From positions 62,001 through 126,000 of the forward strand of contig QPGO01000131.1 of assembly GCA_008632985.1 (NCBI GenBank): a DNA stretch of 64,000 nt. Reading direction: 5' to 3'. This stretch comes from Psammoneis japonica. Taxonomy: Eukaryota. Shown here one piece after another: positions 1 through 64,000 of this stretch; the first letter of the stretch is position 1, and each line of letters opens with the position of its first letter. Below the pieces are notes generated by a model that saw only the letters and a list, made by a program, of their open reading frames with translations, was not told the DNA's origin and did not search any database. The position numbers and the translations under genes are program-made.

Positions 1-54
1 ACACAAAAACCATTGGAGGTCCAACACACACATTTGTGAAAAAAAAATGTTGAA

Positions 55-2502: not shown

Positions 2503-2534
<32 letters not shown>

Positions 2535-18070: not shown

Positions 18071-18294
18071 ATGGAACCATGGGAAAGTCAAAATCGTGGG
18101 GCAGCACTGAAACGCCGTAGAAAATCAAGTAGAAAATGAATGGTCGAAGGAGTCAAAAACCCACCATCCAATGATCGCGATCGCTTTGGGGCCCTGCTTT
18201 GCTGCCAGTCGTCGAGTGACAGCATCCACTCGGAGTGCGACTCTAGCCAGCCAGAGGGCCTGCCATCTAAAAGCCACCAAGCTGTTCCAACACC

Positions 18295-18570
18295 AGCACA
18301 GATCCAAGTGTCATTTTGACATCACACACCATGCGCCTTTGTTGAAATGCATCACACAAAAAGCTGACTCGGAAAGTCCACGCCTCCCAGACTTCGCAAA
18401 AACTAAACCAAGGCGACAGCTGCGACTGCACAACATGTAAAAGCCATGCAACTGGTCTAAAATTAGTGCAGATCTGAGTGTCACTTTGACACAAAACTGT
18501 GAGCCTTCACTGAAATGCATCACACACAAAGTTGACTCGGAAAGTCCATGCCTCCCAGACGTCGCAAACT
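18295..18570. repeat. Diverged tandem duplication (period about 170 bp) of the transposase 3' end
   Basis: tgaaatgcatcacac..gactcggaaagtcca.gcctcccagac at 18343 and 18511; both copies translate as WEAWTFRV.F.CDAFQ. Confidence 0.8.
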
Positions 18571-22999: not shown

Positions 23000-23414
23000 C
23001 TTTCATACAGAGGAGTGTTGGTTCGGCAACAATATGATGACTTGTCAAAGAAGAGTGCGTCACGATTGATGGCTGTAATGAATTTCAAGCCGTCTCAAAA
23101 TTTCTCGTTTTAGCGCGGCGAAGTACGATCGTACTTTCTACGTAATTTTAAATAATACTGCCCCACACTTTTGGACTTTCCCACGGTTCCATTTCGTGCC
23201 CGAAGCAACAATCACCGTTCGGGCACGTGTATCGCGCAATTGTTCAGCAATTCGTGTAGTACTTCGTTTTCAGTTTGTTCTGTGTTCTTGTCGCTTGTCG
23301 CTGCTGTTGCGAGTGATTGATATTGTTCGTCTACAGAAACGTAGCAACATTCGAACCCTTGTTTGTTTTTCGATTGGAAGGGCATTCTACAAGGTCCCTG
23401 CTACGTCAGTCGCA

Positions 23415-30346: not shown

Positions 30347-30407
30347 TAGCATGGTAACTCCTTTACCTAAGATTGGCTGTCTTTGTTTTCAATTGTCCCA
30401 TTATTGT

Positions 30408-32163
30408 TCAGTAAACGGCCCTTCCTCTACTGGCGTCAAAGAAAAAGCCAGTCGTAAAGGCGGCTTCCGGAGAGGCAATGAGGCAACTAGCCTCGCAATC
30501 TCATCAATCGTTCCACGCCTCTTCATCGGTATTTCTTCAGTCATGTGCTTCACCTGCACAGCAGGAACATCTTCCACCATTTTCGTCTTTTACTACAGCC
30601 GGTACAAGCGCATTGCAGGTGATGCTGGTCTCGGCGCATTCTTTTCCAGTCGTCTTTGCTGCAGCAATCACGGCCGCCTTGCTGGCAGAGTGGGTCGTGG
30701 GCTGGCATCCCTGTGTTGTCCTCCTTCCCGACAATGGACGCAATGTTGACGGTGTGTCCACATCTGTGATCCTTCATGTGGGGAAGCAAAGCTTTACATC
30801 CATTGAAGATGCCCTTGATGTTGACATGAAAGATGGCACCAAAGTTGTCAGGTACGACATCTTCAGTCTTGTGGTTTGTTGCTCCCACAATCCCTGCACC
30901 TGCCCCAGAACATCTGCACAACCACCACTTCTTTCCACAGTGCTCCTCCCCAGGCATTTGAAACTGCTGTGGCATCTGTCACATTGCAAGCATCAAACTG
31001 AAAAGGTTGAACAATGTGTCGCATCTTGGAGCACACTGTGTTGAGTGTGTCTTGGCCCAAACCAAGAACAATTGCAACATGGGAAGCCAACTCCAAACCA
31101 AGTTGAGTGGCAATGATGTGTGGCCAATTCCACAAGCACCACCAATGACAATGCATGTCATGCCCTGGAGGCAACTGGAGAGAAATGGCTTTGCAAGCTC
31201 AACAACATTTTCTTCTCATGGTTGCAGAGGTCCCACAATCAGCGCAACCAGCACTCCAATGCCATCAATCTCACACTTGACAACGTGTCACCAGGTGCAA
31301 TCCACCTTGGAGGATTGCAAAAATGCCCCGCTCCTGGAGGTGTCCCCATTGCAACAATGTCTCAAGCGTGCAAGGTTGCTCATGAATCTGGATGTGAGTG
31401 TGATGAGTGTGTCAAGGGGGGAAGAAGACAAGCTCTTTTTGTCGAGGAGACTTGGAGCATCTTGCCATTGACACAGCACCAAATTCCAGCATTGTGAACA
31501 CTTTCAAATGTCACCTCATCTTGAGTGACACAGCTGCTGGACCAATTCTTGGAGCATGTCCATCTGCAGCTTTTCCCAGCAGCTGCTGATCTCCATTCTG
31601 TTCAACAAGCTGCCGATCTCTTGCCAAGATGTCATGGTGCACCGCTGTGTGACGGCTGCCAGTGTGATGATTCGCAGCTTTTTCTCATGGTGCATTTCAA
31701 GGCACCATCAATCCACAATGACCACACCAAGCCTGGCTTCACAATCAAGCTTTTTGGTGGCTTTGTCTTTTGATGCCAGATTGCCTGGTCCAACAAAACA
31801 AGAGCCAAATGTTTCAAAAAGACTGGCACCAGCTCTTCCAGAGTCGGGACATTTTGTCAAGTGCAGTGATCAATGCAGCTCATTCCCACGCAAAAGAACT
31901 TCCCTCCACAAGCCACCCATCAAATGGAGCAAGATTGCAACAATCTTGTGACTGCACATGTGACAACAGGCTTTTGAGAGTGCAAGATTTAATGAGAGGG
32001 TTTGTTTTCAAGAACGCGCTGCCAGATCGGCAGCCAAAAATGCTCTTGCATCAGGAGAAATCAATGAAAAGTCACAGCACCTTTTAGCATTGAGGGTCTG
32101 AGCAACAAACTTCACCTTGCTGAGATGGGCAATGCTTGTAAGATGGGCCGTGGTGAAGCACAT
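30408..32163 (-). pseudogene. Decayed fusion of a fumarylacetoacetate-hydrolase domain and a short-chain dehydrogenase (LRA6-LRA5-like)
   Basis: FAH remnants: GKFFCVGMSCIDHC, KLDCEARLGVVI, LLGKAADGHAP, MGTPPGAG...PPRWIAPGD, KCEIDGIGVL. SDR remnants: CIVIGGACGIG, VNIKG.F, VNIASIVGKE, HSASKAAVI, IPMKRRG, GRAVY*. Many frameshifts and stops. Confidence 0.85.
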
Positions 32164-32199
32164 GTTGGGATCTGGAATCTGGGACACTTCCAACTCCTG

Positions 32200-34700
32200 C
32201 TGGGGGATTGTCGCATGATGTGGAGGTTCTTTCCATGTGATTTCTGCAAGTCACTTCCTGGTGCAAAAAGCCAACAGCACAATGCAAAGTGTGGGTGCAG
32301 CAATGCAGGCTCTCTCAACACCAGAGTGCACCAAGATGGCTGGGTGTTGTGGGTTCATCTCTTTCCTTTGGCAAGCTGGTCAACAGATGTGACACAACAG
32401 AGGCTGCTTTCATTTCTGCTGCACTCTTTGCATGGAGGTTGAGCACTGCCATGATGACCAGACTAGAGAAATGGCAATTGTCAACGCAAGCTCTTTCAGG
32501 TCTGTGAGGAAATGCAAGAGAGCACATGGGTGCCATCTGATTTTGAAGGAAGTTGTCATGGGTGAGAGTTTTGTCAAGAAATTTGCAGATGTTTTCATGA
32601 TGATGAAAACTGAGTGACTTTGTTGTGTCACAACAAGAGTGAGAGCTGATCACAAAAGAGGCTGCTTGAAAACATCTTTCAAGTGAGTCAATCAACACAG
32701 AAACAAGCACTTTTGTCCCTTTTCAATGGGTGGTCCCACACACACTGCACATGCATTTTTTCATCTCTTGGCCTGTTGGTGTGCTGCTGGCAATCTCTCA
32801 AGACACACACAGTGTGCAATGTCCAGTGTGCTGCACGCCAACCAGGCCATTGAAGAAATGCATTGATTGATGTTTTACAAAGAGTGCTTCACTTTGGACT
32901 GCTTTGAACACAAAGCAAGCCTGTGGTTGCTTTTGTGCACACTTGATTTTTGACCAGTTTGCAGCTCTTGCATGCATTTGCTCAAAGTTTGGCTGCCACC
33001 GCAATGCAGACACCTCCTTTCTTGTTTTGGCATTGTGGCAATGGTTGTCTGTTGTGAAGAAACATTCCTGCTGCAGTGGTTGAAGAAGGCAGCACTCTTT
33101 TCCTTTTCTGAACGCCCCCAGGGTTCTGCAAGCACCCTGGTTTTGCTTTTGTGGAAGAAGTTTTTGAGAAGAGAGACTGGGCACATGACTCTGTTGCTTT
33201 CCTGCCATGATGCTTGCAACATGCAGCTGGGAGCAAGTTGTCAAATTGGAACTTTCCTGCTGAAGTCTGTGAGTTCTGATTGTGAGCAGGCACTCAAGGA
33301 TGGCAGCAGCACCAAAATTTTCATTTTCTGCAACACCTTTTCTTCAACCCATTTCAAGCTCGCATTGACCTTGTTTGGCAGCAAGAGTGCAGCCCACTGC
33401 TGATTCCCATTGTCTTTGTTGTTGTTCTGTGGCTGGCAAGCACAATGTGTGAAATCAATGGAGGAGGTTGTGGGCACATCACAGTGCTCATTTCTGATCC
33501 AACGGCTCATGGATTGATTGGATGATGTTGCAAGTTGAAGTTCAGCACAAGAAGATGTCACAGATGTGGTCAACCACAATGTGTTGGTGGTGTCATGATT
33601 GGGGGAATCAAGCAAAGAGATTGGAAGGAGAGAGCAGGGGTGTTTGGCAGGTGGGTGGAGAAGGAGGGGCAAGAGCCAGAAAGTCAAAGGAGCTGGCCCA
33701 GGAGGGTGGCTTGGGTGGAGATTTGGCATGTGGAGAAGGAGGGGCAACAGCCAGAAAGTCAGAGGGGCTGGCCCAGCGTGGCTTGGGTGGGGAGGGATGG
33801 AAGAGAAAGGGGAGCTGGAGAGTCTGAAAAGGAAGGCAGCACTGTGTTTGTGGCAGCAGTGGCAAAGCAGCTGCCAGAGGTGAATGTGCTGTGGTGCCAG
33901 AGCTTGTCCCAGGCACTGCTGAGGCAAGCCTTGGCAATGATGTGTTCTAAAAGGGGCTGCAGATGGGGCAAAGAGGAGCAGGGGGGCAGGGACAGCAATG
34001 TTGACAGCAAGAAAGAGCGGTGAGTGGGTGGGGTGCTGGGGGGTGGGTGGAGCCAGGCAGGAACAAGAAGCTGAGCTCTGGGATGCTCTCAAGGGGGGAG
34101 GGCAGTCAGGGAGGAAGCCTTGGAAGGCTTGAGAAAGACTTGATGATGGGGTGTTGGCAGTTGGCAGAGGCTGCTGAGGGGGTGGAGGGTTTTGACAATG
34201 GAGCAAACAGCGTTGTGGGTGCGGGGCTGGATGAGGAGCCTTTGCGCTTTGCGCGCATTTTAGAGCACACGGCACATGCTGGAGGCACATGATCGCCAAA
34301 TGTCTCTGGGGACAAGTGACTGCAGGGGCAGGGAGAGGAGTGTCAGAGGTTTGGAGGGGTGGCAGGGGTGGTGGGAGCAGCAGGGAGCCAAAGCCGTTGA
34401 AGGACAAGGGGGGCAAATTGTTGGGGCAAGAGCAGGGGCGGAAGCTGCAGAGGTGGGAGCAGGAGAGGGAGGAGTGTTGGAGGGCAGAGGCTGGCAAAGG
34501 GAGAGAGCAGTGAAGGGAGTGTCAGTTGGAGGTTGGGGTGTTGAAGAAGGAGAGGGTGGTCAGCACTCACCTGTGTTGTTGTGGGCAGGTGTGTGTTGGG
34601 CCGGGTGCTGGAGGTTGTTGCCAGAAGTGGCAGAGGGCAGGAGGGGCAGCGAGTCAAACAAGCTGGAAGAGTTTGGCCAAAGAGGGTGGAATCGAGGAGC
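32200..34700. mobile_element. Relic block depleted in TA and CG, with a G-rich low-complexity part
   Basis: Dinucleotide depletion; internal repeat agccagaaagtca.agg.gctggcccag near 33673 and 33749; only spurious ORFs. Confidence 0.45.
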
Positions 34701-35226
34701 CAAAAGATGGAATAAAGGCGGAGGGAGAAGCGAGGGTTAGACCAAGAAGAGAGGGCGGCAGTGCGGCTGGGCGGTGGAGCGAAATGTTGATCGCCGATTG
34801 CATGTGCAGTGCCCAGCCATGGGGGCGGGCACATGACCTCACTTCTTACGAGTGCCACGTCACTTACTTATGCATTGATTGGATGATGTCACATGTTGAA
34901 GTTCAACATGAAGATATAGCGAAGAATCATCAATCAATCACAAAAATAATTAGCACACACACAGCATCGATCACGCTTTGATCACACAACCATCACTCCT
35001 CGCCCTGCTTCATCATACTCTGTTCTGCGAGCAGTCTTGGTCGTGTCAAATAAGCAAATCGAACTTTCGTGAACCCTTGTGTTGCAGAACTCTGCGGCAA
35101 TCTCATATTTCAGGCCAAAGGAAATTGTCCTTCAGCACTCAGCACAAGCCCATTGGACAGCGAGTAGACAGTTTCAGAGAACTCCTAACAAAGTCGGATC
35201 AAGAAGCGACACAGCATCTTCAAAAC

Positions 35227-38559: not shown

Positions 38560-39840
38560 GTAGGGATGGCAAGTTGTCATTTGCCAGTGCGCCTTCTACC
38601 TCAACATCTTTTGCACACTGGGTCAATGGAAGGTGAGACCAAGGGAGAACTTGTCAGCAGACGTTTGTGTGAGATTTCTTGTTGCTTGTCAAGGGCTTCA
38701 CCAGGTTGGATTTGAGGCATTTTGGTTGCTTGGGCATTCATCAAAATGACAGCTGCAGTGGAGCCAGAGGTCAAAGACAACAATCAATTCTTGGTGTGTT
38801 TGTGGAAAGGCCAAGATGCAATTGCATGGTGGGGAAATGTGCTGGAGGCAGGACAGGCCATCAAAGTGTGAGCTGAAGTTTCAGTGGGGGCATTGCAAAG
38901 GAAACAACTTGGCAAATTGACAAAATGCATTTTGTGGGGGTGTCCACCACAGAAGAGCTCTTTTGCCAATTGAGCCACCATCTGGAACACAGGCAGATGA
39001 GTGACTGGAGAAAGGAGCTGGCACCCTGCTTGAAGTTGGCTCTTGTGGCACCACACATCATGTCACAAGCCAGGAGCTGGCAGCACCATGTTGTGAGTCA
39101 GCTGGGCTGCTGGATGTGAGTTGTGAGCACTCTTGTCATTTGAGAATGGACCTCAGTGCACAGTGGGTTGTGTGATTTGATTGAAGAAGAAGGTTGTTTG
39201 CTCATCATGACAGAGGCTGAGTGTTTTCCTCAACTCCAATGCAAGCAGAGGCCCCCTGGAGATCAACGGAGAGTTGCAAGTCGTGCACTGGCAATGACAG
39301 CACAGTGAGTGCCACATTTCGAGCTGGACAAAAACTCTCATTGACAAGAATTGTGTTGTTGGAGATGCACTGCCAGAAAGATTTTTAAAGGCACATTGCA
39401 GGGGGGGGGGGGGCACAAAGCCTCAGCACAGGCAAATGTTGCGTGAACAAACGGCTCTGGGTTGTGCAGAAAGTGTTTTTGTGCTGGCATTTTTCAACAA
39501 GGAAGGCCACACAGGGAATTGCGGGCATGATTTGAGTCTTGGCAGCAGTTTTCTTCAAGAACAATGCCATTGTCATGTCAGCATTTGTGAAGAGCACCCA
39601 GGTTGCTGAGCGAACGGAGAGCAAGCTTTGTGCTCTTGGACCTGTGGTCTCTCTGTGCCAGCACCAGGCTCTCAACGGACAAGCTTTTGTGCATCACGCA
39701 GGAGGGAAGAATGAGAAGGGAAACCAGACAGGAGGGCCACAACATTCAAGAATGCTGTGGATGCATGAAATGCATGCAATGCATGCAATGCAAAAAGGCT
39801 TGTTGCAGCGAAGCTGACATTTGAGTTTTCGTCTGCTTGC
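38560..39840 (-). mobile_element. Decayed repeat block including a probable non-LTR retrotransposon 3' remnant
   Basis: Depleted in TA and CG; minus-strand CFLCNAPTETSAHTLMAC resembles the C-terminal zinc knuckle of LINE ORF2. Confidence 0.45.
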
Positions 39841-40136
39841 ACCCATGTTGTGGGTGCGAGATGTGTTGTTGGCAAGGCATAAACATGTCTATGTATGAAT
39901 ATATTGAAATCTAATCGTTTACAACGGAAGAATCGGTTAACTCCCCTAAGTATTTCAGATAGATCGCGAACACCAACATTTGAAAAAAATGCCCCTGCGA
40001 CGCTCCTGTGCCATGACCGCCCGACCCGTGCTCGTTGTGAACGGTAGTTACTAGTCCTCATCACATCTGCATTCTGTGATTCTCGATAGACTCAATCATT
40101 GTTGCTCAACGTTTGTCGAGTTTCTTGGAAAAACAA

Positions 40137-41551: not shown

Positions 41552-43383
41552 TCAAAAGTCTTCCAAACCATATGGATCAAAATCGTCCAGGTCCTCGTCT
41601 TCCAAAACGGCGGCAAAGGGTATTGCCGACGGACTAATAGCATCATCTTCGTCAGCATACAGCAAATCGTACAAGTCTCGTCGCTCTTCGCGTAATCGTG
41701 AGATACTACCATCGGGTTCCGTCTTTTTGGCGCCCTTGGTTTTCTTCTTTTTCTTTGCCGCAGTCTTTTTCGGCTTTGCTTTGCGTGCCGTAGTTGTCTT
41801 TTTGATCGCAGGCTTTGCCACCTTTTTCTTTTTGACCGCTACGACTTTCTTTACCTTTTTTACTGCTCGCGGTTGCACCGCTCGAACCTCGTCCGTCTTT
41901 TTCCGTCTCGTGCGACGTGGAGATGGCAAAATTCCCATCTCTTCTCGCTTCTTGGCCATGGCATTAACAATTTTATTCCGGTATTCTTGATCTTGCCACT
42001 TTTTCTTCATGGCTTCACTGATACGCTGTCGGTGTGTTTTACCGTATCCTTTTTCTGGGCTCTTTCGTGTGTGGATTTTGGCCATCATTTTTTCACGAAA
42101 TTCAGGATCTTGCCATTTCGCCTTGAGCGTTTCCGAGATGCGTTTGCGGACATCCTCAGCCGAATTGCTAACGTTTGACTTTTCTACCATGTTGTCACGG
42201 TAAGACTTGTCGTTGGCCCATCTCTTTTTCAGAGACGCACTGATTTTAGCTCTTGTTTCCGCGCTGTGTGTAAATCCGCGCCTCACCTTGGAGGGATCAA
42301 CTGGCGTTCGTTTAATTTCACCCTTCGCATACTTGTCCTTGAGCACTTTCGATATCTTTTCTTTCGTCTCTTTTGTTGGTCGAAGGCCTCCCTTTTCGGT
42401 TCTTCTAGCCCGTCGCTCAGCATCCTTTTTCCTTCGTTCTGCCCGTTTCTGTTCCTTGTACTCCTCCTCGGTAATACCCTGTTCCTCTAGTTTCTTGAGA
42501 AAGTTTTGCCGGTTCCTGGCTCGCACACCCGCTGCAATTCGCGCTCTTGTCTCCTCAGAACGTGCCTTGCCCTTGTTCCATGGGATTTTCCCCTTGTTTG
42601 CGGCTGATATTTTTGCCTTGGACGACTTGGTGTGGGTGTATCCGCCGTTTGCGGTAGGATGAGGCACGTCATCGTCCGTGGGTTGCTCTGTTTCCCATAT
42701 CGGAATGTTAGACTCGTCTATTACTGAAGCGCCATTAACAGTAACAGAATTTTCCTTTCCATTTGATGCTGGAACGTTAGTCAACAGAGTGGCATTACTT
42801 ATACCGGAAGAGGAGTTCTGCGGAGCAGGGTCACTGCTTTTTCCATTCACTGTAGCTTCCGCTGTTGCATTCTGCGCCGGAGCAACTACATTTTCGACTG
42901 TAACTTCAGCTTTGTCAACTTGGGTAGAAGGGCCTGGCGATTCAGCTATATCCACTTCTGTGCTCCACAATCTAACCAAGCCCAGTGAAGGCGAAGAACA
43001 CTGTCCTAGCTCAGTCGATTGAAATAGTGGCCGATGAAACGGAACTCTACGAGGACACGGAGGAGCGTTAAAGCACGGACCTCCACGGCGCTCTCGTCGG
43101 TGCATACCCCTTGACCATGGTATCCATCGTCCTTGAAAGGCATCAACGACCATCCTAGGGCGAGTCTGACTTCCACCGGGCAGCAATACAGGATTGAAGC
43201 CAGAGTTGCAACAAGCGGTAGTTTTCGTCTACGTCGCTTAGAAGTTGACCTCTGAGGTCTCATCTCTGAATTCATCGTTTCTATCGCCTCTTTTCTTTTC
43301 ACTGTGTTCTCTAGCTCTGCTATTGACCGTTCTATGGTGTCCTTGGTTGCCGAAAGCCTCTTGTTTAGCATTTCATCCATCAT
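41552..43383 (-). CDS. Basic protein with NUMOD3-like repeats, full-length copy; one-base frameshift near 43187
   Basis: HTKSSKAKISAANKGKIPWNKG, SEETRARI, ETKEKIS, HSAETRAKISASLKKRW; acidic tail. The paralog has caataaca where this copy has caataca. Confidence 0.8.
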
Positions 43384-44062
43384 CCAAGCTGTCTTCGGGA
43401 TTTGAGTGATGGAAGTAGTGATTATGTAGATGCGATTTGATTGGTTGTTGACGTTGTGTCGGGGCCACTGACGGTTGCCGTAAAGGCAGTATGTTCTCTA
43501 CGTAGAAAGCGAAAGCATCCGGATGACGGAGAGGGTAAGAATTACACCGGCAAGCTCATTAGGCCCCCAGGGCCCTGGAGCTAAGGAGCAACATCCTAGG
43601 AGACATCGTGATAAAGAAGACGACAAAACGACTGGTGTCATTGATCGCATGGTTGCAGCATGAGCCACCACGATGGCTTGGGTTTCCGGCACTTTCGACA
43701 TGTGAAGGAAAGTTTCCCCTTCTACTCCTGCAACAGCTCTTTTTCGAACGAATCATGAGTCCAATGATTGCTGCATTGTCAACTTTTCACAGCCACAGAA
43801 GTTCCTCATGTCTCTTGTCATTTTGACTTGGTGTCTTCCCAGGCTCTGCATCCCTCAGGACTTGCTTTTCTTTCTGTGTTTGCGCTTTTTCATTTTTGTG
43901 CTTTTTCCTTTTTCGTTCATCGCTGGAGCCATCATTGCTGCTTGCCCCATTCACTGGATGCTGTAAATTGTTGTCACTCTCACAGTGTTGTCTTGTGCTG
44001 GATTTTGTTTTGTCAGTGTGTCCGCCCATGGCACCTCTTGCCTTGCTTGCTTCCACGGCTCT
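42008..44062 (+). repeat. Direct segmental duplication, copy A (about 2.05 kb)
   Basis: Collinear with 46290-48369 from catggcttcactgat to ccacggctc. Confidence 0.95.
43855..44062 (-). pseudogene. Truncated, mutated 3' fragment of the FRA10AC1-like gene
   Basis: KARGAMGGHTDKTKSS.RQHCESD...ERKRKKHK matches the end of the 48161-48964 ORF. Confidence 0.85.
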
Positions 44063-46070
44063 GGCAGAGGCAGCGACCTGCACGAGTGGGTTTCAAATCT
44101 GGCTGAGTCATGAGGTTGCTGCTCTCTGCACTGTCTTGTGCCACAGCATTGGAGAATCTGTGTGGGTCAATGTTGACAATCGGGCAACAAAGGCGTTTGC
44201 ACTGCACAACTGCCAGTGCCAACTCTGAAAATGTCACCAGCACTGTCTCCAGATGGTTGTGACTGATCTTTGTGCACCTTGTGGGTGCAAAGCTCTTCAG
44301 CTTTGTGATTGGCTGGCCACTGGCCAACTGCCAATGGGAGGAAACCAAGCAGATGTGCACCATTCATTCTCAAAAATGCAGCATTCCATCCACAAACTTT
44401 TGATGTGCATCAGAGCTGGGATGCATGAGGAACATAGAATGAAGGAGAGTTGATGCACAGACCACCTCCACTGCACTTGCCTGGATTGTCTGAAGTTGCC
44501 ATTGCTGCCGTGTTGCAAGTGGGGCAAAATGTTTTTTTGGCACAAATTTTTGAGCTAAATTGGCCAAATTTGAGTTGCAAAAAGCAGCGATTGGCACCCT
44601 TGAGTGAAGGCTGCGGCAGTAGAGGGAAGTTCTGCCTTGCGCATTGTGGCTGCATGTTGAGTCTTGTGAGTCATCATGACAACACTCTTTTGTCTGGATG
44701 GCAACCACCACCATGGCCCAATTGGGCGAAGAGGTGGATTTTGTGAAAACAATGGCACCTGCATGATTTCTGTTGTGTCCCCACCCACAGCGGCCAGCAA
44801 CATGACTCTGGTGCCAGACATGTGGACAGGTGAGTGGATGGATGAACAGACCCTGACTTTTTGAAGTCCACCCGCTCATCAGTTGTAAAAAGATTTTGCA
44901 AAGATTTGATCTTGAATGAACTTGATCTTGATCTTGAACCTGCAACAACAAACAACAATGTCAAATGTCACTGCTCAAAATGGTGCTGTCGAGTTGTTGC
45001 TCTCAGCACCGCAGCTGTGCATTCAATTGCAAGCACAGACATTTCTGAACTCAGAGATGACTGGACCACCTGCACGTGTGCATCTTCCACCTGTGTGGAA
45101 GAAGTGCTGCAAGCACAAAGGTTGGGAGCACAATGAAAAGGATCTCATTTTGCTTGGAAAGGAACAACATGGGCAAGTCGATGCTGCAAAGTGCTTGATC
45201 GACATGTTTGTTGGAATCACAACTGAAAAGGGTGGCATCAAGAAGCTCAAGCGAAGCAAGGCTGACCCTTGCATGTTGCATCATCATGATGACAAGGGGC
45301 AGTTGGAGACTGTCATTTTGATGTGCATGGACAATGGGGTTTCACATGCAAAAAGCCGGAAGTCATCAAGGAAGCCAAGGACCATTGTTTGGCAAAGAGA
45401 GTTAAGATGATGGACATTGGATGAATCAACGGCTCATTTAGGAGTTGATTGTGAATTGAACAAAGACAAACATGGTTGGCACTTTGAGTGCAGCATGCGC
45501 AAGTGCTTGGAGAAGATGATTGCAGAGTGCAAACAACCCTTCAACAAGAAGGTTGAGAACTGTGAGACACCTGCAGAGGGCAAGGGAATGTGCTGATGAA
45601 GGCAGACAAAGATCACAAGCCAGCCAAGCAAAGTGGATGTGAAGCCTTTGTTGGAAAGAGGTTGTGTGCATGTTGAAGGTCTCACCTGATTGTGCAAATG
45701 CAGACAGAGCCCCGACAATGCATTTGACGAATCCAGCTGATGAGCGCTGGTGCACGTGCTGGACAGATTCGTGGGACATCTGAAATTTCACTGTCAGGAG
45801 CCATTGAAGTTGAGGTTGCCTTTGGAGTCAAGGAGCTCAGGAACATTTGACACTGAGTGAAGAATGGACAAGAATGACCAAAAGAGCATTTCAAGTGACC
45901 TCTCCACACTGGGCGGCATGTCCTCAATCAGCTGGCAATCGAAGAAGCAGACCTTGGTGGTGGCGCTGAGCAGTTGTGAAAGTGAGACCATGGCAGGTGC
46001 GGCGGGGTGCGCACAGAGCATTCAGTTTCAGAGTCACTTGTTGGAGGACATCGTCAACGCGTGTTGATTT
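44063..46070 (+). mobile_element. Ty1/Copia LTR-retrotransposon pol relic (RT and RNase H)
   Basis: LLGKEQHGQVDAAK (LYG motif), SKADPCML, LMCMDN (YVDD), KSISS...LGG..ISWQSKKQTLVVALSSCESE. Confidence 0.85.
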
Positions 46071-46235
46071 GAGAGATCGGCTCCATAGCTCTGTAGGTGG
46101 TTGAACGACAATGGCGGAGAATTGACAAGTGGAAATTCGGTTTGGTAAGATTGAATCGGCATCAGAAAGATTAAAACAGTAGATCATAATTTAGCGAGAA
46201 TGAGAAAAAAAGACTATATATTTTATTTTTGTGTG

Positions 46236-47654: not shown

Positions 47655-48369
47655 TGAAACCCAGCATCCAACCTGCCTTCAGGATGAGAGTGATGGAGGT
47701 GATTAGTCTAGGTGCGATTTGATTGGTTGTTGACGTCGTGTCGGGGCCACTGACGATTGCCGTAAAAGGCAGTATGTTCTCTACGTAGAATGCGAAAGCA
47801 TCCGATGACGGACAGGGAATTCAAAAAGATCTCGGTGAAGATTTAGTAGCCCTACCGTAGATAGACTCCTCTTCCTCCTCTACTAGTAGCTAGAGCTAAG
47901 TAGCAACATCCTAGGAGACAACATGATAAAGGAGACGACAAAACGACAAGTAGGTATCGTCGAACGCACAGTTACAACACAAGACACCACGATGGCTTGG
48001 GTTTCCGGCACTTTCGACGACAAAAGTTTCTCCTCCTGATCCCAGTTCTTTTTCGAACGAATCATAAGTCCAAGAACTACAGTGTTCCCTTTCCATAGCC
48101 ATAGAAGTTGACCACACTTCTTGCCAAGACGACTTGGTGCCTTCCCAGGCTCTGCGTCTCTCAGGAACTCCTTTTCTTTCTACGTTTGCGCTTTTTTCGT
48201 TTCTTGTGCTTCTTCCTTTTTCGTTCAACGCTAGAGTCATCATTACTGCTTGTCCCATTCAATGACTGCTGTGAATCGTCGTCGCTCTCGTGGTGTTGTC
48301 TTTTGTTGGATTTTGTTTCGTTTGTGTGTCCCTCCATGGCGTTTCTTGCCTTGCGTGCTCCCACGGCTC
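46290..48369 (+). repeat. Direct segmental duplication, copy B
   Basis: Collinear with 42008-44062. Confidence 0.95.
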
Positions 48370-58418: not shown

Positions 58419-58789
58419 TGTCGACTATATAAACCAACAAGTTTCAGAGCTAAAACCTGCAACCGTCAGCACTGTCCAGCACAAAAGCGTTGACGATGTT
58501 GGATGGTCACGTTCGTTTGGTTGTTTGGTTGCCGCTTGCAACACCAGCCACTGACATACGCGTTTGTTGAGGTTTCTCGCCCGGCGAACACCGTATCTTT
58601 TTGATTTCCTTGATTCAAACTGTGACGTAAGCGACCTCCACGACGCGCTCGCGAGATGGAGGAGCGCGCGATCCGAAGGCACTCACGAGTGGTCACTCTT
58701 TCTCTGTCTCTCTCATGTGAGCACATCTGCCAAGTTGCTGATGCTGAGGAAAAGAACAACAACACTGTCGAAATCATGTTGATCACCCA

Positions 58790-60975
58790 GTCACCCATTG
58801 CAAGGCTGATCTTGTGGTGTTGTGTTGCCCGTGTCACCTTTTGTTCCCAACAGCAATGACCGACTTTAACCTCCAAAGTTCACACTGAAAGGGTGCCATG
58901 ACGCCCCCCACCAAGCTGACATCTACAAGCTGGGGACACTGGTGGCATCTGGTGGACCCAGGGTGAGACTTCAAGAATTCAAGAGCTGTTGTTGGGTGCT
59001 GCAAGGTTGATCCTGTGGTTTTGTGCCCCAGGTCACATTGTCCTCCCCAACAGCAGCCAACATGACCAAAGGTCAAGGATCTCATCATTGCACCAACCAC
59101 CTGACAACTGCCAGCAGAGGGCATTGGTTTTTTTTTGTGAACCCTGGGTGAGATTTAAGAGCTGTTGTTTTGGGCATTGCAAGGTTGATCCTGCTGTGGT
59201 GCCATGGTCGTGTGTCATGTTGTGCCCAAGAGGGAGCAGACTTGAAATTCCAAAAATTCTCAAGTGAAAGAACCCTGCACAATGGCACCAACCAACCTCA
59301 CAACTGCAAGCTGAGGGCATTGGTGGTCTGTGGTGGACCCCAGGTGACAGTTTGAGAGCTGCGGCTGAGCACTGCACAGTTGATCTTGTGGTGTTGTGAC
59401 ACCATGTCAGGTTGTCCCAACAGCAGTGGGACTTGAACCTTGAACTTCCAAACTCCAGAGTGCAGGGATCCCTTGGTGGCACTCAACCAACCCAACAACT
59501 GCCAATGGAGGGTGCTGGTGATGTCTGGCAAACTCCGGGTGAGACTTTGAGAAACTGTGGTGAGGAGGGGGCACCGCAAGGTTGATGTTGCGGCATTGTG
59601 GCCCCACACATGTCACCTTGTGTGCCCAACAGCAGCAGACTTGGCTTTCCCAACTCCAAAGTGCAAGGATCCCATCATGGCATCAACCAACCTGACAACT
59701 GCCAGAAGAAGAGGGCACCGGTGGTCTTTGGGAAATCCTGGGGTGAAACTTCTTTGAGAGCTGTTGTTGGGCATTGCAAGGTTGAGCGCTGCAGCCATGT
59801 GTCACATTGTGCCCAACAGGAGCAGAGCTGAACTTCCAAATTCCAAAGAGTGAAAAGATCCCATGACAGCACCAACCAACCTCACAACTGCAAGCTGGGG
59901 ATGTTGGGGGTTTGTGGCAGACCCCAGGGACAGTTTGAGAATTGTGCCGGAGTGCTGCAAGGTCAATCCCATGGCATCGTGGGGTGCCACATGACCTTGT
60001 CCCCAACAGCAGCGGACGACTTGCCAAACTTGTTCCAAACTCCCAGAAAAGTGCAGGGGTCCCATGGCAGCACCAACCAACCCAACAACTGCTGGCAAAG
60101 AGCATTGGTGGTGTCTGGCGGCAAACCCCAGGTGGTGCTTGAAGATTTGCAGCTGGGCATTGCAAGTTGCAAGGTCGTTGTGGTGTTGTGGCCCCATGTC
60201 ACCTTGTGCCCAACCACAGCACAGCAACTTGAACTCCAAAAGTCCACATTTGGAGGATCCCATCACAGCACCAACCAACCTGGCAACTGCAAATTGAGGG
60301 AACTGCTGGCAGTGTCTGGCACACACCAGGCGCGACTTAAAGAATTGTGGCTGGGCATTGCAAGGTTGATGTTGTGGCACTGTGGCCCCATGTCACCCCC
60401 TCTTGTGCCCAAGAACCACAGCAGACTTGAACTTTCAAACTTCACATTTGGAGGATCCCATTGTGTGGTGCCAACCAACCTGACAACTGCAAGTTGAGGG
60501 CACTGGCAGTGTCTGGTGTGCACCAGGGTGTGACTTCAAGAATTGTGGCCGAGAGCATTGCCAGGTTGGTGTTGTGGCATTGTGGCCCCATGTCAGCTTG
60601 TGCCCAATGGCAGTGGACTTGACTTTCCCAACTCCAAAGTGCAAAGATCCCATCATGGTGCCAACCAACCTGTGACAGCTGACAGCAGAGGTCATTGTCA
60701 GTCTTTGATGGACCCCATGTGAGACTTGGTACATGATGAGCTGTTGTTGGGCACTGCAAGGTTAATCTTGTGGTGCTGTGGCTCCATGTTGCCTTGTCCC
60801 TGACAGGAGCAGACTTGAGCTTCTTGCTCCAAACTCCAGAGTGTGAAAGAACCCCACAGTGACACCAGTCAACCCACCAATTGCCAGCAGAGGGCACTGG
60901 CAGTGTCTGGTGGACACCAAGGGCAAGGCTTGAAGAGCTGTTGTTGTTGGGCATTGCAAGGTTGATCTTGTGACA
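58790..60975. repeat. Degenerate tandem array, about 12 units of about 180-200 bp
   Basis: ttgggcattgcaaggttgat..gtgg / ccaaccaacc.gacaactgc recurs near 58800, 59000, 59180, 59375, 59577, 59777, 59957, 60160, 60360, 60560, 60757, 60957. Confidence 0.85.
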
Positions 60976-61604
60976 AGGATTGAACAATCCTGTTTTTCAA
61001 TCCAGCGGCATTGGACAAAACCAAGGTTGAGTGAGTCTTGTGTGACCTTGGTCCTTGACTCTTTCTGCACCCATCTGAGCAGAGCTGGAGCCAACATGTT
61101 TTGCTGTGACTGCTGACCAAAACCTTGTGGGGGAGAGCAGGGCACGCACCACACACCCGGCCTTTCTGACAATGACAGCAAGGGAGGATCTGGCTGTGGA
61201 AAATGACTCAGATTTCAGACATGGAAGCCAAGGATTGGATTTCTACAATCAAGAGACTGCATTGGGAAGTGAGGGCAGTGACAAAGAAAGACAGAGAAAT
61301 TCTAAGTGGCGCAGTTGACTCAACCAAACAACAACATGGCACACATCAAACATCAAACTCACGTCAGAGCCAAAAGCTGGCAAGGAGCACAAAGATCTGC
61401 CAAGGCGCTGGTCAAACAAATGGGGTGGAAGAAGGTTTGTGCTCATGCACTGTGCTGGTGCTGGGTGTGATTCAGGATGCAAGCTCCATGGCGCACCCCC
61501 AACTGTCACAAAGTCCTTGATGGCAATGTGAGGTGCCTTGCGAACAAATGGTTTGTTGCCAAGTTGTGCAAGGCTGTCATCAAGAAATGTGATGAAGAGC
61601 ATGG

Positions 61605-61812
61605 CAAGAACTTTGTCGTCAACCATTTGGATGAATCAACAAGCTTCAGAGCCAAACCTGCAACCACCAGCACTGTCCAGCATGACACTGGTGTTGATGA
61701 TGTTGGATGGTCACATTTGTTTGGTTGTTTGGCTGCCGCTTGAGGTTCTCACCCAGCAAACACTGCACCCTTTTGATTTCTTTGACTCAAACTGTGATGC
61801 AAGCAACCTCCC
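61605..61812 (+). repeat. Mutated duplicate of 58410-58640 (start and upstream region of the Ala/Lys/Pro-rich gene)
   Basis: Shared aaacctgcaacc..cagcactgtccagca, gatgttggatggtcac, tttggttgtttgg, ttttgatttc.ttga.tcaaactgtga. Confidence 0.85.
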
Positions 61813-63199
61813 CAAAGGCAGTCACAAGGGATCCATGTGGTGGTTCATCCCTCTCCACAGAAGTCTTTCCAACTCTTTGCCAGTCAAAAAAACTTGAGAC
61901 AGATGAATTCAGGCAACAAGTTGAGGACATTTTGGCTGAAAATTCCTTCCCTTGACCCTGCAATGTGGAGAGAGAATGCAAGAGTGCATGACACAACATC
62001 ACATCACTCTCATTGCTCGCGGGCATGCGGTGCATCCACAGCCAATGCTGCTGCTGGTGGTGTGGTGGCAAGCAAAAGAAAAGTTGTGCTGTCAAAGCCA
62101 AGTTGGCCACCCTGTCACCACACATCCAAGTCACCAAGTCATGGTGTGCAGGACCCTCTTGGGGGTGGTGCATGATGGGGGGCAAAACATCACAAGAAAA
62201 ATGTCATCTTGTGCCAGGGGCATGCCAGCAGCTGGCACACATCAGGGCACCTTCCCGCACAATGGCCACTGTCTTGTCTTAAATGGTGACAAATGCTCTC
62301 ACCAGTTGGCCCCTCCTGACATGGGCCAATGCTTCAAGTGATGAGAAACACCATGCTTTAAACACCATGAGTTCCTTGCTGCAACTCCTTGCTGCGCAGC
62401 TTGAGAAAGTGACCTTTTTCTTTTTCTCACAGACAAGTGTTGCCTCATTTCAGAGAAACATTCAGCACCAACATGTGTGGGTTGAGAGAAGAGAGTGTTG
62501 CAAGCCCATCCTCAATTCTCTTGCAATGCTCCTCACACCTCCAGCACTGTGATGAATCACCTCTCTTTCATCTGTGCCCAGAGAGGCAATGCTGAGAAAA
62601 AGAAAAGTCTTGGCATTGAGCACACAGTGCACCCCCCAAACAGCAAAGTTGCCACTGGCATGTCTGCATGCACCCTGCCCAATCTTGAGAGATGAGCCAC
62701 ATGAACAACAAGTGGGTGCAAAGAGTGGGACCTCAACAAAAAAGCACAAATGTGAGAGGTGCGCAAGAGTTTGTTGGGTCCAGCTGCCAACTTTGGGTGC
62801 AAAACCAAAGCTGCCTCTGCCCCCTGCACACAAACTTCCAGCTCTTGACCAAGAGTTGGCAGAATGTGTCAGCCCACCTGTTGTGCGATGGACAGACTGT
62901 GTGCGGATGATGACCGGACCATTTGGACAGACGAGCAGATCTCTCTGAGATCTGCCTCTCACTTTCTCATCTGCTGGCACTCGTGTTGTCACAGTCCCAG
63001 TGCTCAGGGAGTCTTTCACACCTCTGTCATCATTGACCTTCGGCATTCTGTCAGGTTGTGGCCTTACGCTGTGCCACAGAACTCTGCGCCAAGCTTTCCA
63101 TCTCGATTCATTTGTTTTGTGAGCTGACCGAGCAAGCCTCATCTTCTGTTCCAACAACAATTTTTTTCTCGCTTTCCCGGCATTTTTCACGATCGCAGA

Positions 63200-64000
63200 A
63201 ACATGCCAGATTTCTTCATGTGCATGACCAAAAATGCCCTCATCAAGTGAAACCATGGCGTCTCCCGACCTTGCAAAGGCCGCTCCGACGTCCATTGCAG
63301 AGATCCACCATGAGTTTCAAGAACACACAATGACACCTCATTTCCATGCGACCTTGAACAAGATGCGCGCCGATTCAACATTTGATCTGGACCCGTTCTT
63401 TGATGATCCAGAACATGCTCAACCGAAGAAAGATTTTGTTGATGTGTTTCGAGATCACCTCGTCCACACGGCGTTCCCACCTTGCACGGTCCATCCTGTG
63501 GACATGCAGGCTGTCAAGATGATTGTGGATGAAGCTGCGCTCCGCATTGTTGACTCTGCCAGGCCTCGTGCGATCCGCATGACGCCCGCATCTCTCTCGT
63601 TGATCATCAAGACCAATCTCTGGGGAGCCACGATCAAATCATGTGCGTTGTCATCTCCACACACCACATTGATGATGACCCCGACATGACATGGAACTGT
63701 CAGGATTGGAAGGAGTTCTCCCTCATGCCCCACCCGCAGAACCCACAGCCTGCACCATCATCTACGACTGCTTCAGGACCTGCGACAGTTGGTGTGAATG
63801 ACTCAATCACCACCCTCAACAAGTTTGCGTCAAGCCACGCTCCGCCTTCCACTGCCTCTGGCAAGACCTCTGGAACTCCCGCAACTTCCACAGCATCCAA
63901 ATGTCTCTTCAATCCCAACACCCTGCCTCCCGATGTTTGCACACGCTGCGACCGCAAAGAAAGTGGTGCCGTCACCCTGAAGAGCTCTCTGGTCCCTTGT
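63200..64000 (+). mobile_element. Start of a younger TA-depleted, CG-retaining coding relic, running off the window
   Basis: Protein-like, Tyr-free ORF 63234-63689; many CG, very few TA. Confidence 0.4.

What the first reader, a model, noticed from the sequence alone, without database searches (positions are those of the whole stretch)
43630..44062. Directional TpA->TpG/CpA mutation (a reverse-RIP signature) alongside CpG decay, shown by paralog comparison
Seen: against its paralog (47950-48369, mostly intact FRA10AC1 3' region), this copy has changed most of its TA and many of its CG sites. Examples: atcataagtcc->atcatgagtcc; catagccatagaag->cacagccacagaag; tttctacgtttg->tttctgtgtttg; gctagag->gctggag; cattactgct->cattgctgct; atcgtcgtcgctctcg->attgttgtcactctca. 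The heavily decayed relic blocks retain only a handful of TA (e.g. near 592, 1455, 1672 in the first 2.7 kb), while genes have normal TA. Known: CpG->TpG follows 5mC deamination, and fungal RIP converts CpA->TpA. Here TpA->CpA runs the opposite way and cytosine methylation does not explain it. Inference: a repeat- or heterochromatin-targeted process acts on A or T in TpA (adenine modification/deamination, thymine modification or biased repair). I know of no description of this, but have not searched the literature.
Basis: partly seen in the sequence, partly recalled or inferred. Interest (0 to 1): 0.92.

Follow-up and report, generated by a model that had tools for sequence, protein, structure and literature searches.

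The report
TpA-erasing mutation islands in a diatom
In silent islands of this diatom chromosome nearly every TA, and most CG, has been turned into TG or CA, the long-term footprint of a TA-targeted mutation process that has so far been reported only once, in an unrelated alga.

Summary
About a third of the window lies in sharply bounded islands. Five of them (14,732 bp) hold 32 TA where about 589 are expected (O/E 0.03), with CG at 0.19 and TG/CA at 1.8. Two more (5,871 bp) have lost TA only (0.13; CG 0.76). Normal DNA, including non-ORF DNA, has TA 0.59-0.68. The direction of change is shown four ways: the paralog pair; loss of conserved tyrosine codons (TAY to CAY/TGY) in a transposase relic (1 of 11 kept against 220 of 298 other residues); a catalytic Tyr-to-His change in a dehydrogenase relic; and repeats inside islands that differ by tandem CA/TG swaps. 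Contigs of another run at about 60x depth carry the same TA-free sequence, so it is not a basecalling artefact. A 2026 preprint measured TpA-only A>G/T>C hypermutation of integrated viral DNA in the chlorarachniophyte Bigelowiella natans. This window looks like a saturated diatom counterpart, acting on a DNA-transposon relic and unidentifiable relics, with ordinary CpG decay following more slowly. Homology-triggered, RIP-like targeting is not supported. The enzyme is untested; an adenine deaminase preferring 5'-T is the leading guess.

The parts
43560..44061 (.). Depleted end of duplicate A (the flagged stretch): a relic of the FRA10AC1 3' end and downstream DNA, abutting block D4
   Evidence: Of 16 TA in B, 10 are TG/CA here. 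Of 25 CG in B, 12 are TG/CA here. TA per 100 bp drops from 6 to 1 at about 43600.
47871..48369 (.). Matching part of duplicate B, used as the reference: the 3' end of the intact FRA10AC1-like ORF (48161-48997, minus strand) and downstream DNA
   Evidence: Fra10Ac1 domain, E 1.8e-31.
42008..43559 (.). Undepleted part of duplicate A (partner 46290-47870), covering most of a NUMOD3-motif gene. TA is kept in both copies.
   Evidence: 1,548 columns, 86 mismatches, 48 shared TA. Polarity is reversed here (8 v 1).
1..2785 (.). Block D1: TA and CG both depleted (runs off the window start)
   Evidence: It contains the inverted repeat 58-321 / 468-719, whose arms differ at 36 positions: 31 are transitions and 8 are tandem CA/TG swaps.
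17311..22246 (.). Block T1: TA depleted (O/E 0.07-0.19 per kb) and CG near normal. The margins run from about 16935 to 22600. A DNA-transposon relic.
18507..20216 (-). Open but dead ORF of a PIF/Harbinger-type DDE transposase family, inside T1
   Evidence: of 11 consensus-Tyr columns, 1 is kept, 5 are His, 4 are Cys and 1 is Pro, against 220 of 298 other consensus residues kept (Fisher 2e-5); 10 of 16 long relatives match DDE_Tnp_4.
21275..23002 (-). XPG-like 5'-3' nuclease ORF at the right edge of T1
   Evidence: of 7 consensus-Tyr columns, 4 are kept and 3 are His/His/Cys. TA O/E is 0.26 here against 0.60-0.62 in the DNA of the two closest relatives (L001, L002).
30853..34713 (.). Block D2: TA and CG depleted (left margin from 30603)
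   Evidence: X1 contigs cover 31016-33360 and 33816-35045.
30400..31260 (-). Frameshifted short-chain dehydrogenase pseudogene straddling the left edge of D2. The catalytic YxxxK tyrosine is now His (CAC, 30690-30692).
   Evidence: adh_short, E 1.3e-11; aligned to YSASK of solved SDRs.
38597..39880 (.). Block D3: TA and CG depleted
   Evidence: A weak zf-RVT match at 38787-39062 lies below Pfam's cut-off.
43723..46086 (.). Block D4: TA and CG depleted. Its core, 44062-46086, lies between the two duplicates.
   Evidence: X1 contigs at 43670-45069 (2 differences, 4 gaps) and 45280-45989 (1 difference).
58628..63065 (.). Block D5: TA and CG depleted. It includes a decayed array of about 200-bp units at 58796-60990.
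   Evidence: Of 30 YR column pairs, 11 are mixed TG/CA with almost no TA/CG. The 34 RY pairs keep AT/GC.
63066..64000 (.). Block T2: TA depleted (2 TA per kb) and CG near normal (48 CG). It runs off the window end.

Best explanation
The window comes from a diatom nuclear chromosome in which particular islands are subject to a DNA-level process that converts TpA into TpG or CpA (A>G on one strand or the other). The islands are a PIF/Harbinger-type transposon relic and older relics that can no longer be identified. The process is far faster than background mutation. It runs to near-completion and stops within about 100-300 bp of the island edge, so gene fragments that happen to lie at an edge are caught too (the FRA10AC1 3' relic of the finding and a dehydrogenase pseudogene). 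Because TA>TG/CA cannot create stop codons, hit genes stay 'open' but lose their tyrosines. CpG decay (C>T, as expected from 5-methylcytosine) is a second, slower process in the same islands. Young islands have lost only TA, and old ones have lost both. The signature is the one measured directly in Bigelowiella natans mutation-accumulation lines (TpA only, A>G/T>C, silenced foreign DNA), so this is most likely the same kind of genome defence in a stramenopile. What is shown: the composition, the direction, the regional confinement, and that it is not an artefact. What is inferred: that it is enzymatic and aimed at foreign or silenced DNA. The weakest step is the chemistry. My leading guess (about 0.35) is deamination of adenine to hypoxanthine by a deaminase that wants T at -1, as ADAT/TadA-type enzymes want U33 before A34 (recalled; also argued in the preprint).
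For: (1) Composition. D blocks, 14,732 bp: TA O/E 0.03 (32), CG 0.19, TG 1.79, CA 1.83. T blocks, 5,871 bp: TA 0.13, CG 0.76. Rest, 42,066 bp: TA 0.59, CG 0.95. The pyrimidine-purine share is 0.239/0.244/0.239, so only transitions are needed. The AA, TT, AG and AC classes are unchanged and AT is only mildly lower, so the process is specific to TpA and is not a general AT>GC drift.
(2) Region-specific. Non-ORF DNA outside the blocks has TA 0.68 and CG 1.0. Edges are 100-300 bp wide.
(3) Direction: paralog pair, 10 v 2 for TA and 12 v 1 for CG.
(4) Direction with outgroups. The DDE ORF keeps 1 of 11 consensus Tyr (5 His, 4 Cys, 1 Pro) against 220 of 298 other residues. The XPG-like ORF has 3 of 7 Tyr changed to His/Cys. 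The SDR catalytic Tyr is now His. Relatives' DNA has normal TA (L001/L002 0.60-0.62).
(5) The change happened after duplication. The inverted-repeat arms differ by 8 tandem CA/TG swaps among 36 mismatches. In the 200-bp array, 11 of 30 YR column pairs are mixed TG/CA without the TA/CG intermediates, while RY pairs keep AT/GC. There are 0 CA/TG swaps among 86 mismatches in the undepleted duplicate part against 4 among 95 in the depleted part.
(6) Real bases. X1 contigs at about 60x word depth cover D2, D3 and D4 with 1-11 differences per contig and no excess of G>A at TG.
(7) Still mutable. Between the window and X1 in D2, 2 of 9 TA sites and 6 of 40 CG sites differ, against 29 differing positions in about 3,243 bp overall.
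(8) Composition at equilibrium implies that TA is lost at least about 50 times, and CG about 10 times, faster than they are made (this assumes neutrality).
(9) Precedent: preprint 10.64898/2026.01.13.699255. By its cut-offs, 16 of 64 1-kb windows here qualify, in three runs of 3 or more.
Against: No de novo mutation was observed here; everything is inferred from one 64-kb window and one run set. X1 may be the sample the assembly was made or polished from, and its library type is not on record. That excludes a long-read basecalling artefact only if X1 is accurate reads, which its depth and contig lengths imply but do not prove.
The origin of the five fully depleted blocks is unknown: of 103 ORFs scanned, only a dehydrogenase fragment and one sub-threshold zf-RVT matched. 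'Foreign DNA' is therefore shown only for T1.
In the undepleted part of the duplication the polarity is reversed (8 v 1). TA<>TG/CA changes are thus not exclusive to the islands, and the reference copy is not pristine.
No strand-coordinated TG/CA patches were found, which a processive single-strand deaminase might leave (runs z -2.3 in blocks v -4.3 in genes).
B. natans showed no CpG component, and its regions are far from saturated (TpA Rho 0.45), so identity of mechanism is an assumption.
No deaminase, methylation or chromatin data could be examined, because no whole genome is held.
Confidence: 0.62

Rival explanations
1. The attacked base is thymine, not adenine. A TET/JBP-type or other oxidase makes 5-hydroxymethyl- or 5-formyl-uracil at TpA in silenced DNA, and its mispairing with G, or faulty repair, gives T>C. 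That change reads as TpA>CpA on one strand and TpA>TpG on the other.
For: The sequence outcome is identical to adenine deamination and cannot be told apart here. TpC (and GpA) is also slightly lower in the blocks (TC 0.92 v 1.11, GA 0.97 v 1.13), and about 10 of 21 non-TA T>C/A>G differences in the depleted paralog part sit in TpC (unpolarised). From recall, dinoflagellate hydroxymethyluracil sits mainly in TpA and TpC, and 5-formyluracil mispairs with G.
Against: No report of such bases in diatoms appeared in the listing of 15 papers holding 'diatom' and '5-hydroxymethyluracil' (listing only; all concern dinoflagellates). The TpC effect is small and unpolarised. No enzyme or modification data exist.
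Confidence: 0.15
2. There is no dedicated enzyme. TpA and CpG are simply the two unstable steps in compact, unrepaired heterochromatin of this species (spontaneous damage plus biased or absent repair), and the islands are old neutral DNA near its mutational equilibrium.
For: Both self-complementary pyrimidine-purine steps vanish together in the old blocks. Polymorphism is raised at both TA and CG sites. One CC>TT difference (31514-5) hints at unrepaired UV damage.
Against: TA-only blocks with CG almost intact and ORFs still open (T1, T2) require a TA process much faster than any other change. P0138 has lost 10 of 11 conserved Tyr while keeping 86% of other consensus residues. The implied TA loss is at least about 50 times the background. 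No known spontaneous lesion is TpA-specific with transition outcome; from recall, UV TA photoproducts give transversions.
Confidence: 0.1
3. RNA-level A-to-I hyperediting of element transcripts, followed by reverse transcription and integration. The islands would then be born edited rather than mutated in place.
For: A-to-I editing enzymes prefer U before the edited A (the preprint's Discussion; also recall). One weak zf-RVT trace lies in D3.
Against: The depleted stretch of duplicate A is continuous with 1.5 kb of undepleted duplicate, and the dehydrogenase relic grades from depleted to normal within one gene. T1 is a DNA transposon. Inverted-repeat arms and array units resolved TA/CG independently after duplication in place.
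Confidence: 0.04
4. Artefact or intrinsic composition. Either modified bases were miscalled in a long-read assembly, or the inserted DNA was TA-poor from the start (or is kept TA-free by selection).
For: The assembly technology is unknown, and only one study holds the sequence.
Against: X1 contigs at about 60x word depth, up to 7 kb long, agree with the window across three blocks, with symmetric differences (A>G 13, G>A 13, T>C 10, C>T 9). Relatives of both T1 genes have normal TA and Tyr. Host-gene relics at the edges are affected. Selection at hundreds of junk-DNA sites is implausible.
Confidence: 0.04

Closest known systems
   Same: Only TpA is hit. The outcomes are TpG and CpA. It is confined to particular, largely silent, non-host regions. 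The long-term trace is TpA-poor, CpA+TpG-rich clusters of 1-kb windows. DDE-endonuclease and reverse-transcriptase domains are enriched among TpA-poor genes. SNP density is raised in the region.
   Different: There it was measured as de novo mutations (231 of 302 SNMs; about 6e-7 per site per generation) in a rhizarian. Here it is inferred from sequence in a diatom. Here it is at saturation (O/E 0.01-0.06 per kb v Rho 0.45 for their NCLDV region), on a transposon relic and unidentifiable relics rather than recognised viral inserts. It overlaps gene relics at the edges and is accompanied by CpG decay, which the preprint does not mention (0 occurrences of 'CpG').
Fungal repeat-induced point mutation (RIP; RID/DIM-2 dependent)
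   Same: A dinucleotide-specific transition process that inactivates mobile DNA and leaks into adjacent sequence. It leaves strongly skewed dinucleotide ratios.
   Different: RIP converts CpA to TpA (TA rises, GC falls), whereas here TA is erased and GC stays at 0.50. RIP is triggered by duplication, whereas here a 1.5-kb 95-100% identical linked duplicate is untouched. Diatom DNMT4 is related to RID, but its function is unknown (PMC9998398, passages).
Methylation-driven CpG decay (5mC deamination) of silenced transposons
   Same: The CG>TG/CA component of the D blocks (CG O/E 0.19). It is also seen alone in relatives of the XPG-like gene from other organisms (L003 CG 0.04 and L004 0.26, with TA 0.48-0.49).
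   Different: It cannot produce TA>TG/CA. In this window it never occurs without TA loss, and it lags behind it.
ADAR/APOBEC editing of viruses and retroelements; DNA deamination by ADAT2 (amphioxus, trypanosomes), as cited in the preprint's text
   Same: Deamination as defence; U/T preferred before the edited A.
   Different: Those act on RNA or single-stranded cDNA, or on C. No natural eukaryotic enzyme is known to deaminate A in chromosomal DNA at this scale, and nothing about the enzyme was tested here.

Membership tests
TpA-targeted A:T>G:C hypermutation of silenced foreign DNA (B. natans type) | Changes fall on TpA and give TpG or CpA | tested here: met
   Paralog: 10 of 13 changed TA became TG/CA. 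DDE ORF: 9 of 10 changed Tyr codons became His/Cys. Composition: only the YR class is distorted.
TpA-targeted A:T>G:C hypermutation of silenced foreign DNA (B. natans type) | [quoted passage not shown] | tested here: met
   16 of 64 windows pass both cut-offs. Runs: 1-3000, 31001-35000, 59001-64000. The cut-offs were set on B. natans, not on this genome.
TpA-targeted A:T>G:C hypermutation of silenced foreign DNA (B. natans type) | Targets are of foreign or mobile origin | tested here: inconclusive
   T1 carries a PIF/Harbinger-type transposase relic and an XPG-like gene. The five D blocks gave no usable match, and two viral-contig scans found nothing.
TpA-targeted A:T>G:C hypermutation of silenced foreign DNA (B. 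natans type) | De novo mutation rate raised by orders of magnitude, in only some lines | not testable with these tools
   The only proxy is that 2 of 9 TA sites in D2 differ between the window and X1, against 0.9% of positions overall.
TpA-targeted A:T>G:C hypermutation of silenced foreign DNA (B. natans type) | Almost no other mutation class in the region | tested here: not met
   D blocks also lost CpG (O/E 0.19). T blocks come close to the pure pattern (CG 0.76).
Fungal-type RIP | CpA>TpA (TA gain, AT enrichment) | tested here: not met
   TA O/E 0.03, GC 0.50 in the blocks.
Fungal-type RIP | Triggered by sequence duplication | tested here: not met
   The 1,548-column duplicate part, 95-100% identical in most 100-bp bins, keeps 48 shared TA.
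5mC-driven CpG decay | CpG>TpG/CpA with low CpG O/E | tested here: met
   12 of 25 CG became TG/CA in the paralog. CG O/E is 0.19 in the D blocks.
5mC-driven CpG decay | Cytosine methylation of the region | not testable with these tools
   No methylation data are available.
RNA hyperediting followed by retro-integration | Edited tract coincides with a retro-copied unit | tested here: not met
   The depletion grades into contiguous unedited duplicate and gene DNA, and T1 is a DNA transposon.

The most novel reading that the evidence does not exclude
Diatoms, and perhaps the whole SAR group, possess a chromatin-guided DNA adenine deaminase system: a true 'A-RIP'. It recognises newly silenced mobile DNA without needing a second copy, erases essentially every TpA within a few generations while leaving reading frames open, and spreads about 100 bp beyond the methylated domain. 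It would be the first natural eukaryotic enzyme system that edits adenine in chromosomal double-stranded DNA, and it could be discovered in a genetically tractable alga.
Probability: 0.25. Interest if true: 0.92.

Novelty: new member of a known kind. Interest (0 to 1): 0.72.

Why it matters
Until 2026, every known dinucleotide-targeted genome defence (RIP, MIP, CpG methylation decay, APOBEC) worked on cytosine. One preprint now shows TpA-targeted A:T>G:C hypermutation in a chlorarachniophyte. Finding its saturated footprint in a diatom would mean the process is neither a curiosity of one rhizarian nor limited to viral inserts. It would instead be a widespread, possibly ancient, way of killing mobile DNA in a major group of marine primary producers.

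The finding also has practical consequences:
- Hit genes keep long open reading frames and will be mis-annotated as genes.
- Tyrosine-free, Cys/His-rich 'orphan proteins' and TA-free islands are easy genome-wide markers.
- The sharp island edges give a natural assay for what guides the process.
- The responsible enzyme, if it is an adenine deaminase acting on chromosomal DNA, would interest base-editing research.

Tried and rejected
- **Whole genome:** none is held, so no genome-wide scan or proteome search for deaminases, DNMTs or TET/JBP was possible.
- **Earlier findings of the scan:** none.
- **Sequencing runs:** only one study holds the stretch and no RNA holder is listed. X2 carries a GT..AG joint at 29006-29095 and very uneven depth, so it may be RNA. 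It has no cover in any bin of D2, D3 or D4. X3 laid nothing.
- **Pfam on island ORFs:** one search listed 108 ORFs of 90 aa or more. 103 went into, and the other five long ones had been scanned. The only matches were an adh_short fragment, a sub-threshold zf-RVT and a sub-threshold XPG_I, so the D blocks could not be identified.
- **Viral-contig scans:** both T1 proteins found nothing, so a viral origin of T1 is unsupported.
- **Strand-coordinated patches of TG v CA:** not found. The TG:CA order in the paralog (8:2) is not significant.
- **Flanking-base preference among surviving TA:** TTAA is enriched (9 of 37 against 4% in normal DNA), and ATAT and ATAC are both absent from the D blocks. The numbers are too small, and new TA arise by back-mutation, so this is a lead only.
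- **Spill-over from D4 into the left end of duplicate B:** 5 of the 8 reversed sites lie at 46304-46612, but a TA-rich 200 bp lies in between. Left unexplained.
- **Literature:** nine searches found no description in diatoms. The only TpA-hypermutation paper found is the B. natans preprint, whose supplementary tables could not be opened.
Full report
**What the window is.**
The window is gene-dense, with GC about 0.48 and long ORFs with few introns. The C-terminal half of its V-ATPase subunit A is 90-95% identical to diatom proteins; every named hit among the best 120 listed is a diatom except one crustacean entry. One secreted protein (57609-58424, minus strand) starts with a signal peptide followed by an 'AF' motif, which I recall as typical of diatom plastid targeting. 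Ordinary genes fill the normal parts: choline kinase, choline transporter, rhomboid, an enolase-superfamily protein, TFIIF-beta, an HpcH aldolase and others. No whole genome is held, so everything below comes from this window, one set of public runs, protein and metagenome searches, and the literature.

**The observation.**
The flagged stretch is the end of a 2.06-kb duplication: A is 42008-44061 and B is 46290-48369, 88.6% identical. B overlaps an intact FRA10AC1-type ORF.
- In the last 489 aligned columns, 10 of B's 16 TA are TG (8) or CA (2) in A, and 3 are kept. The reverse happens twice.
- Twelve of B's 25 CG are TG or CA in A. The reverse happens once (binomial p 0.039 and 0.003).
- Against a simple reading: in the other 1,548 columns, where both copies have normal TA content, A has TA where B has TG/CA at 8 sites and the opposite at 1. 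B is therefore not a perfect ancestor, and such changes are not exclusive to the depleted stretch. I could not explain this (see below).

**The phenomenon is far larger than the finding.**
One-kb bins and TA-free gaps define two kinds of island.
- Five islands have lost both TA and CG: D1 1-2785, D2 30853-34713, D3 38597-39880, D4 43723-46086 and D5 58628-63065.
- Two islands have lost TA only: T1 about 17311-22246 and T2 63066-64000.
- The pooled figures are:

| DNA class | Size (bp) | TA O/E (count) | CG O/E | TG O/E | CA O/E |
|---|---|---|---|---|---|
| D islands | 14,732 | 0.03 (32; about 589 expected) | 0.19 | 1.79 | 1.83 |
| T islands | 5,871 | 0.13 | 0.76 | 1.50 | 1.51 |
| Rest of window | 42,066 | 0.59 | 0.95 | 1.13 | 1.16 |

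- The longest TA-free gap is 1,182 bp, with P about 3e-21 at the normal density.
- The share of pyrimidine-purine steps is the same in all three classes (0.239, 0.244, 0.239). Transitions alone therefore account for the change.
- The other dinucleotide classes barely move (AT 0.79 v 0.91, GC 1.16 v 1.06). This is a TpA- and CpG-specific effect, not a general drift in base composition. GC stays at 0.50.
- Non-ORF DNA outside the islands has TA 0.68 and CG 1.0. The islands are therefore not simply showing the genome's neutral equilibrium.
- Edges are sharp. TA per 100 bp falls from 4-6 to 0-1 within 100-300 bp. At three edges (D2 left, D4 left, D5 left) the TA front lies about 100 bp outside the CG front.
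- CG-poor bins with normal TA do not occur in this window, whereas TA-poor bins with normal CG do. TA loss is therefore the faster or earlier process.

**It is not an artefact.**
Only one study holds the sequence. Its run X1, stored as k-mer contigs with a mean word depth of about 60 and pieces up to 7 kb, covers D2, D3 and D4. Each contig shows 1-11 differences, and the differences are symmetric (A>G 13, G>A 13, T>C 10, C>T 9). If the window's TG/CA were miscalled TA/CG, hundreds of G>A and C>T differences per island would appear. X1's library type is not on record and it may be the sample used for the assembly. What this excludes is therefore a long-read basecalling artefact; errors shared by all data of that sample are not excluded.

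**Direction, shown independently of the paralog.**
(a) The ORF at 18507-20216 in T1 belongs to a large family: 1,442 cluster representatives at E<=0.001.
- Its longer members carry a PIF/Harbinger-type DDE_Tnp_4 domain: 10 of 16 scanned, 8 of them above Pfam's cut-off. Two of the 16 carry a Ulp1 protease, and 4 have no hit.
- At the 11 alignment columns where relatives agree on tyrosine, the window copy keeps one and has His at five, Cys at four and Pro at one. It keeps 220 of 298 other consensus residues (Fisher p 2e-5). TAY>CAY and TAY>TGY are exactly TA>CA and TA>TG.
- The ORF is still 569 codons long, because this process cannot make a stop codon. Open frames inside the islands are therefore no evidence of function.

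(b) The neighbouring XPG-like ORF (21275-23002) has 3 of 7 consensus Tyr changed to His, His and Cys. Its DNA has TA O/E 0.26, against 0.60-0.62 in the two closest metagenomic relatives. Two more distant relatives are CpG-depleted (0.04, 0.26) with normal TA. Ordinary methylation decay without TA loss therefore exists elsewhere in this family.

(c) A frameshifted short-chain dehydrogenase pseudogene straddles the left edge of D2. Its 3' end is compositionally normal and its 5' two-thirds are depleted. The invariant catalytic Tyr of YxxxK is His (CAC at 30690-30692), aligned to YSASK of solved enzymes.

(d) Of 130 family members with at least 5 of 10 conserved Tyr columns covered, only the window copy and one other protein, P0138, show the Tyr-to-His/Cys wipe-out. 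P0138 retains 86% of other consensus residues, as ordinary members do. This argues for a burst that is fast relative to background change.

**The change happened in place, after duplication.**
- Inside D1, two inverted-repeat arms (58-321, 468-719) differ at 36 of 252 positions. Thirty-one are transitions, and 8 are tandem CA/TG swaps, which account for 16 of the 36 mismatched positions.
- In the decayed 200-bp array of D5 (11 units), 11 of 30 pyrimidine-purine column pairs are mixtures of TG and CA with almost no TA or CG. The 34 purine-pyrimidine pairs act as a built-in control: they keep their AT or GC state alongside the single-step derivatives.
- Tandem CA/TG swaps are absent among 86 mismatches in the normal part of the A/B duplication. 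There are 4 among 95 mismatches in the depleted part.
- Four of the listed differences between the window and X1 in D2 are also such swaps.
- All of this is what one expects if TA and CG are short-lived states that each copy resolves at random to TG or CA.
- At the polymorphism level, 2 of 9 TA sites and 6 of 40 CG sites in D2 differ between the window and X1, against 29 differing positions in about 3,243 bp (based on the 40 differences the tool listed, with 24 more not shown).
- If the D blocks are near equilibrium and neutral, their composition implies that TA is destroyed at least about 50 times, and CG about 10 times, faster than it is created (an inference).

**What triggers it.**
It is not duplication as such. 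The 1.5-kb part of the A/B duplication that is 95-100% identical in most bins keeps 48 shared TA. That differs from fungal RIP, as does the direction of change. The identifiable target (T1) is a DNA transposon relic. The D blocks are beyond recognition. Two scans of viral contigs with the T1 proteins found nothing. The gene relics affected (the FRA10AC1 3' end and the dehydrogenase) lie at island edges and are contiguous with unaffected DNA. This points to a regional, DNA-level process, and not to editing of an RNA intermediate. I found no strand-coordinated runs of TG v CA.

**Comparison with what is known.**
Nine literature searches found nothing of this kind for diatoms. A paper on diatom DNA methyltransferases (PMC9998398, passages only) notes that diatom DNMT4 is related to the RIP enzyme RID, with function unknown, and says nothing on TA.

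One preprint is a direct precedent: Mettrop et al., bioRxiv 10.64898/2026.01.13.699255 (abstract, all of Results and Discussion read, plus term searches; supplements closed).
- In Bigelowiella natans mutation-accumulation lines, 231 of 302 nuclear point mutations fell in an integrated giant-virus region and a virophage region, at about 6e-7 per site per generation.
- 230 of the 231 were A>G or T>C, all on TpA, and only in some lines.
- The genome also holds 124 clusters of TpA-poor, CpA+TpG-rich windows. DDE-endonuclease and reverse-transcriptase domains are enriched among TpA-poor genes.
- The authors propose an ADAT2-like adenine deaminase.
- By their cluster rule, 16 of 64 windows here qualify, in three runs of three or more.
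- The preprint mentions neither diatoms nor CpG.

**Verdict.**
'Repeat-targeted' is not supported, and 'undescribed' is no longer true.
- I read the islands as the saturated, long-term footprint in a diatom of the same kind of TpA hypermutation seen live in B. natans, with conventional CpG decay following behind.
- The chemistry (adenine deamination v thymine oxidation v something else), the guide (chromatin mark, small RNA) and the enzyme are all untested.
- The reversed polarity in the normal part of the duplication also remains open. Five of its eight sites lie 220-530 bp to the right of D4, but a TA-rich 200 bp sits in between.

Noticed in passing
protein P0138: A second member of the transposase family, from an ENA-sourced contig of 3,120 bp. 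It has lost 10 of 11 conserved tyrosines to His/Cys while keeping 86% of other consensus residues. The same process has therefore hit another copy, in this or another organism. Its outcomes differ from the window copy at several sites.
   Followed up: partly
L003 and L004 (metagenome loci): Distant relatives of the XPG-like gene are strongly CpG-depleted (O/E 0.04 and 0.26) with normal TA (0.48-0.49). They show classical methylation decay without the TA process, which suggests the gene family is a silenced repeat in other hosts too.
   Followed up: partly
window 42008-43559 v 46290-47870: In the undepleted part of the duplication, A has TA where B has TG/CA at 8 sites, against 1 the other way. 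Five of the 8 cluster at B 46304-46612, close to block D4, but a TA-rich 200 bp (46100-46299) separates them from it.
   Followed up: partly
window 41552-43228 (-) and 46236-47678 (-): These are two copies of a lysine-rich protein gene with NUMOD3 motifs (E 2.9e-19 and 2e-20), a DNA-binding motif better known from homing endonucleases. Copy B is truncated at the duplication breakpoint. Parts of the two copies are 100% identical over 200 bp, suggesting gene conversion or a very recent event.
   Followed up: no
window 58796-60990: A decayed array of about 11 units of about 200 bp (63-80% identical to the reference unit), entirely TA-free, inside block D5.
   Followed up: partly
window 30603-30852, 43560-43722, 58500-58700: At three island edges, TA depletion reaches about 100 bp further out than CG depletion.
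   Followed up: partly
window 31514-31515: A CC/TT tandem difference between the window and run X1, of the kind UV damage leaves. It is a single case.
   Followed up: no
window 4769-7366 (+): An 865-aa ORF that joins an aspartate-decarboxylase-type domain (two matched stretches) to SAM-methyltransferase domains. This is an unusual fusion.
   Followed up: no
window 29006-29095: Run X2 skips 88 bases with GT..AG ends just upstream of the enolase-superfamily ORF, which looks like a spliced intron. X2 therefore behaves like RNA, although it is not recorded as such.
   Followed up: no
D and T blocks, surviving TA sites: Surviving TA are enriched in TTAA (9 of 37 in the D blocks against 4% in normal DNA), and ATAT and ATAC are both absent from the D blocks. 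This hints at a preference for the base after the A. The numbers are small.
   Followed up: partly
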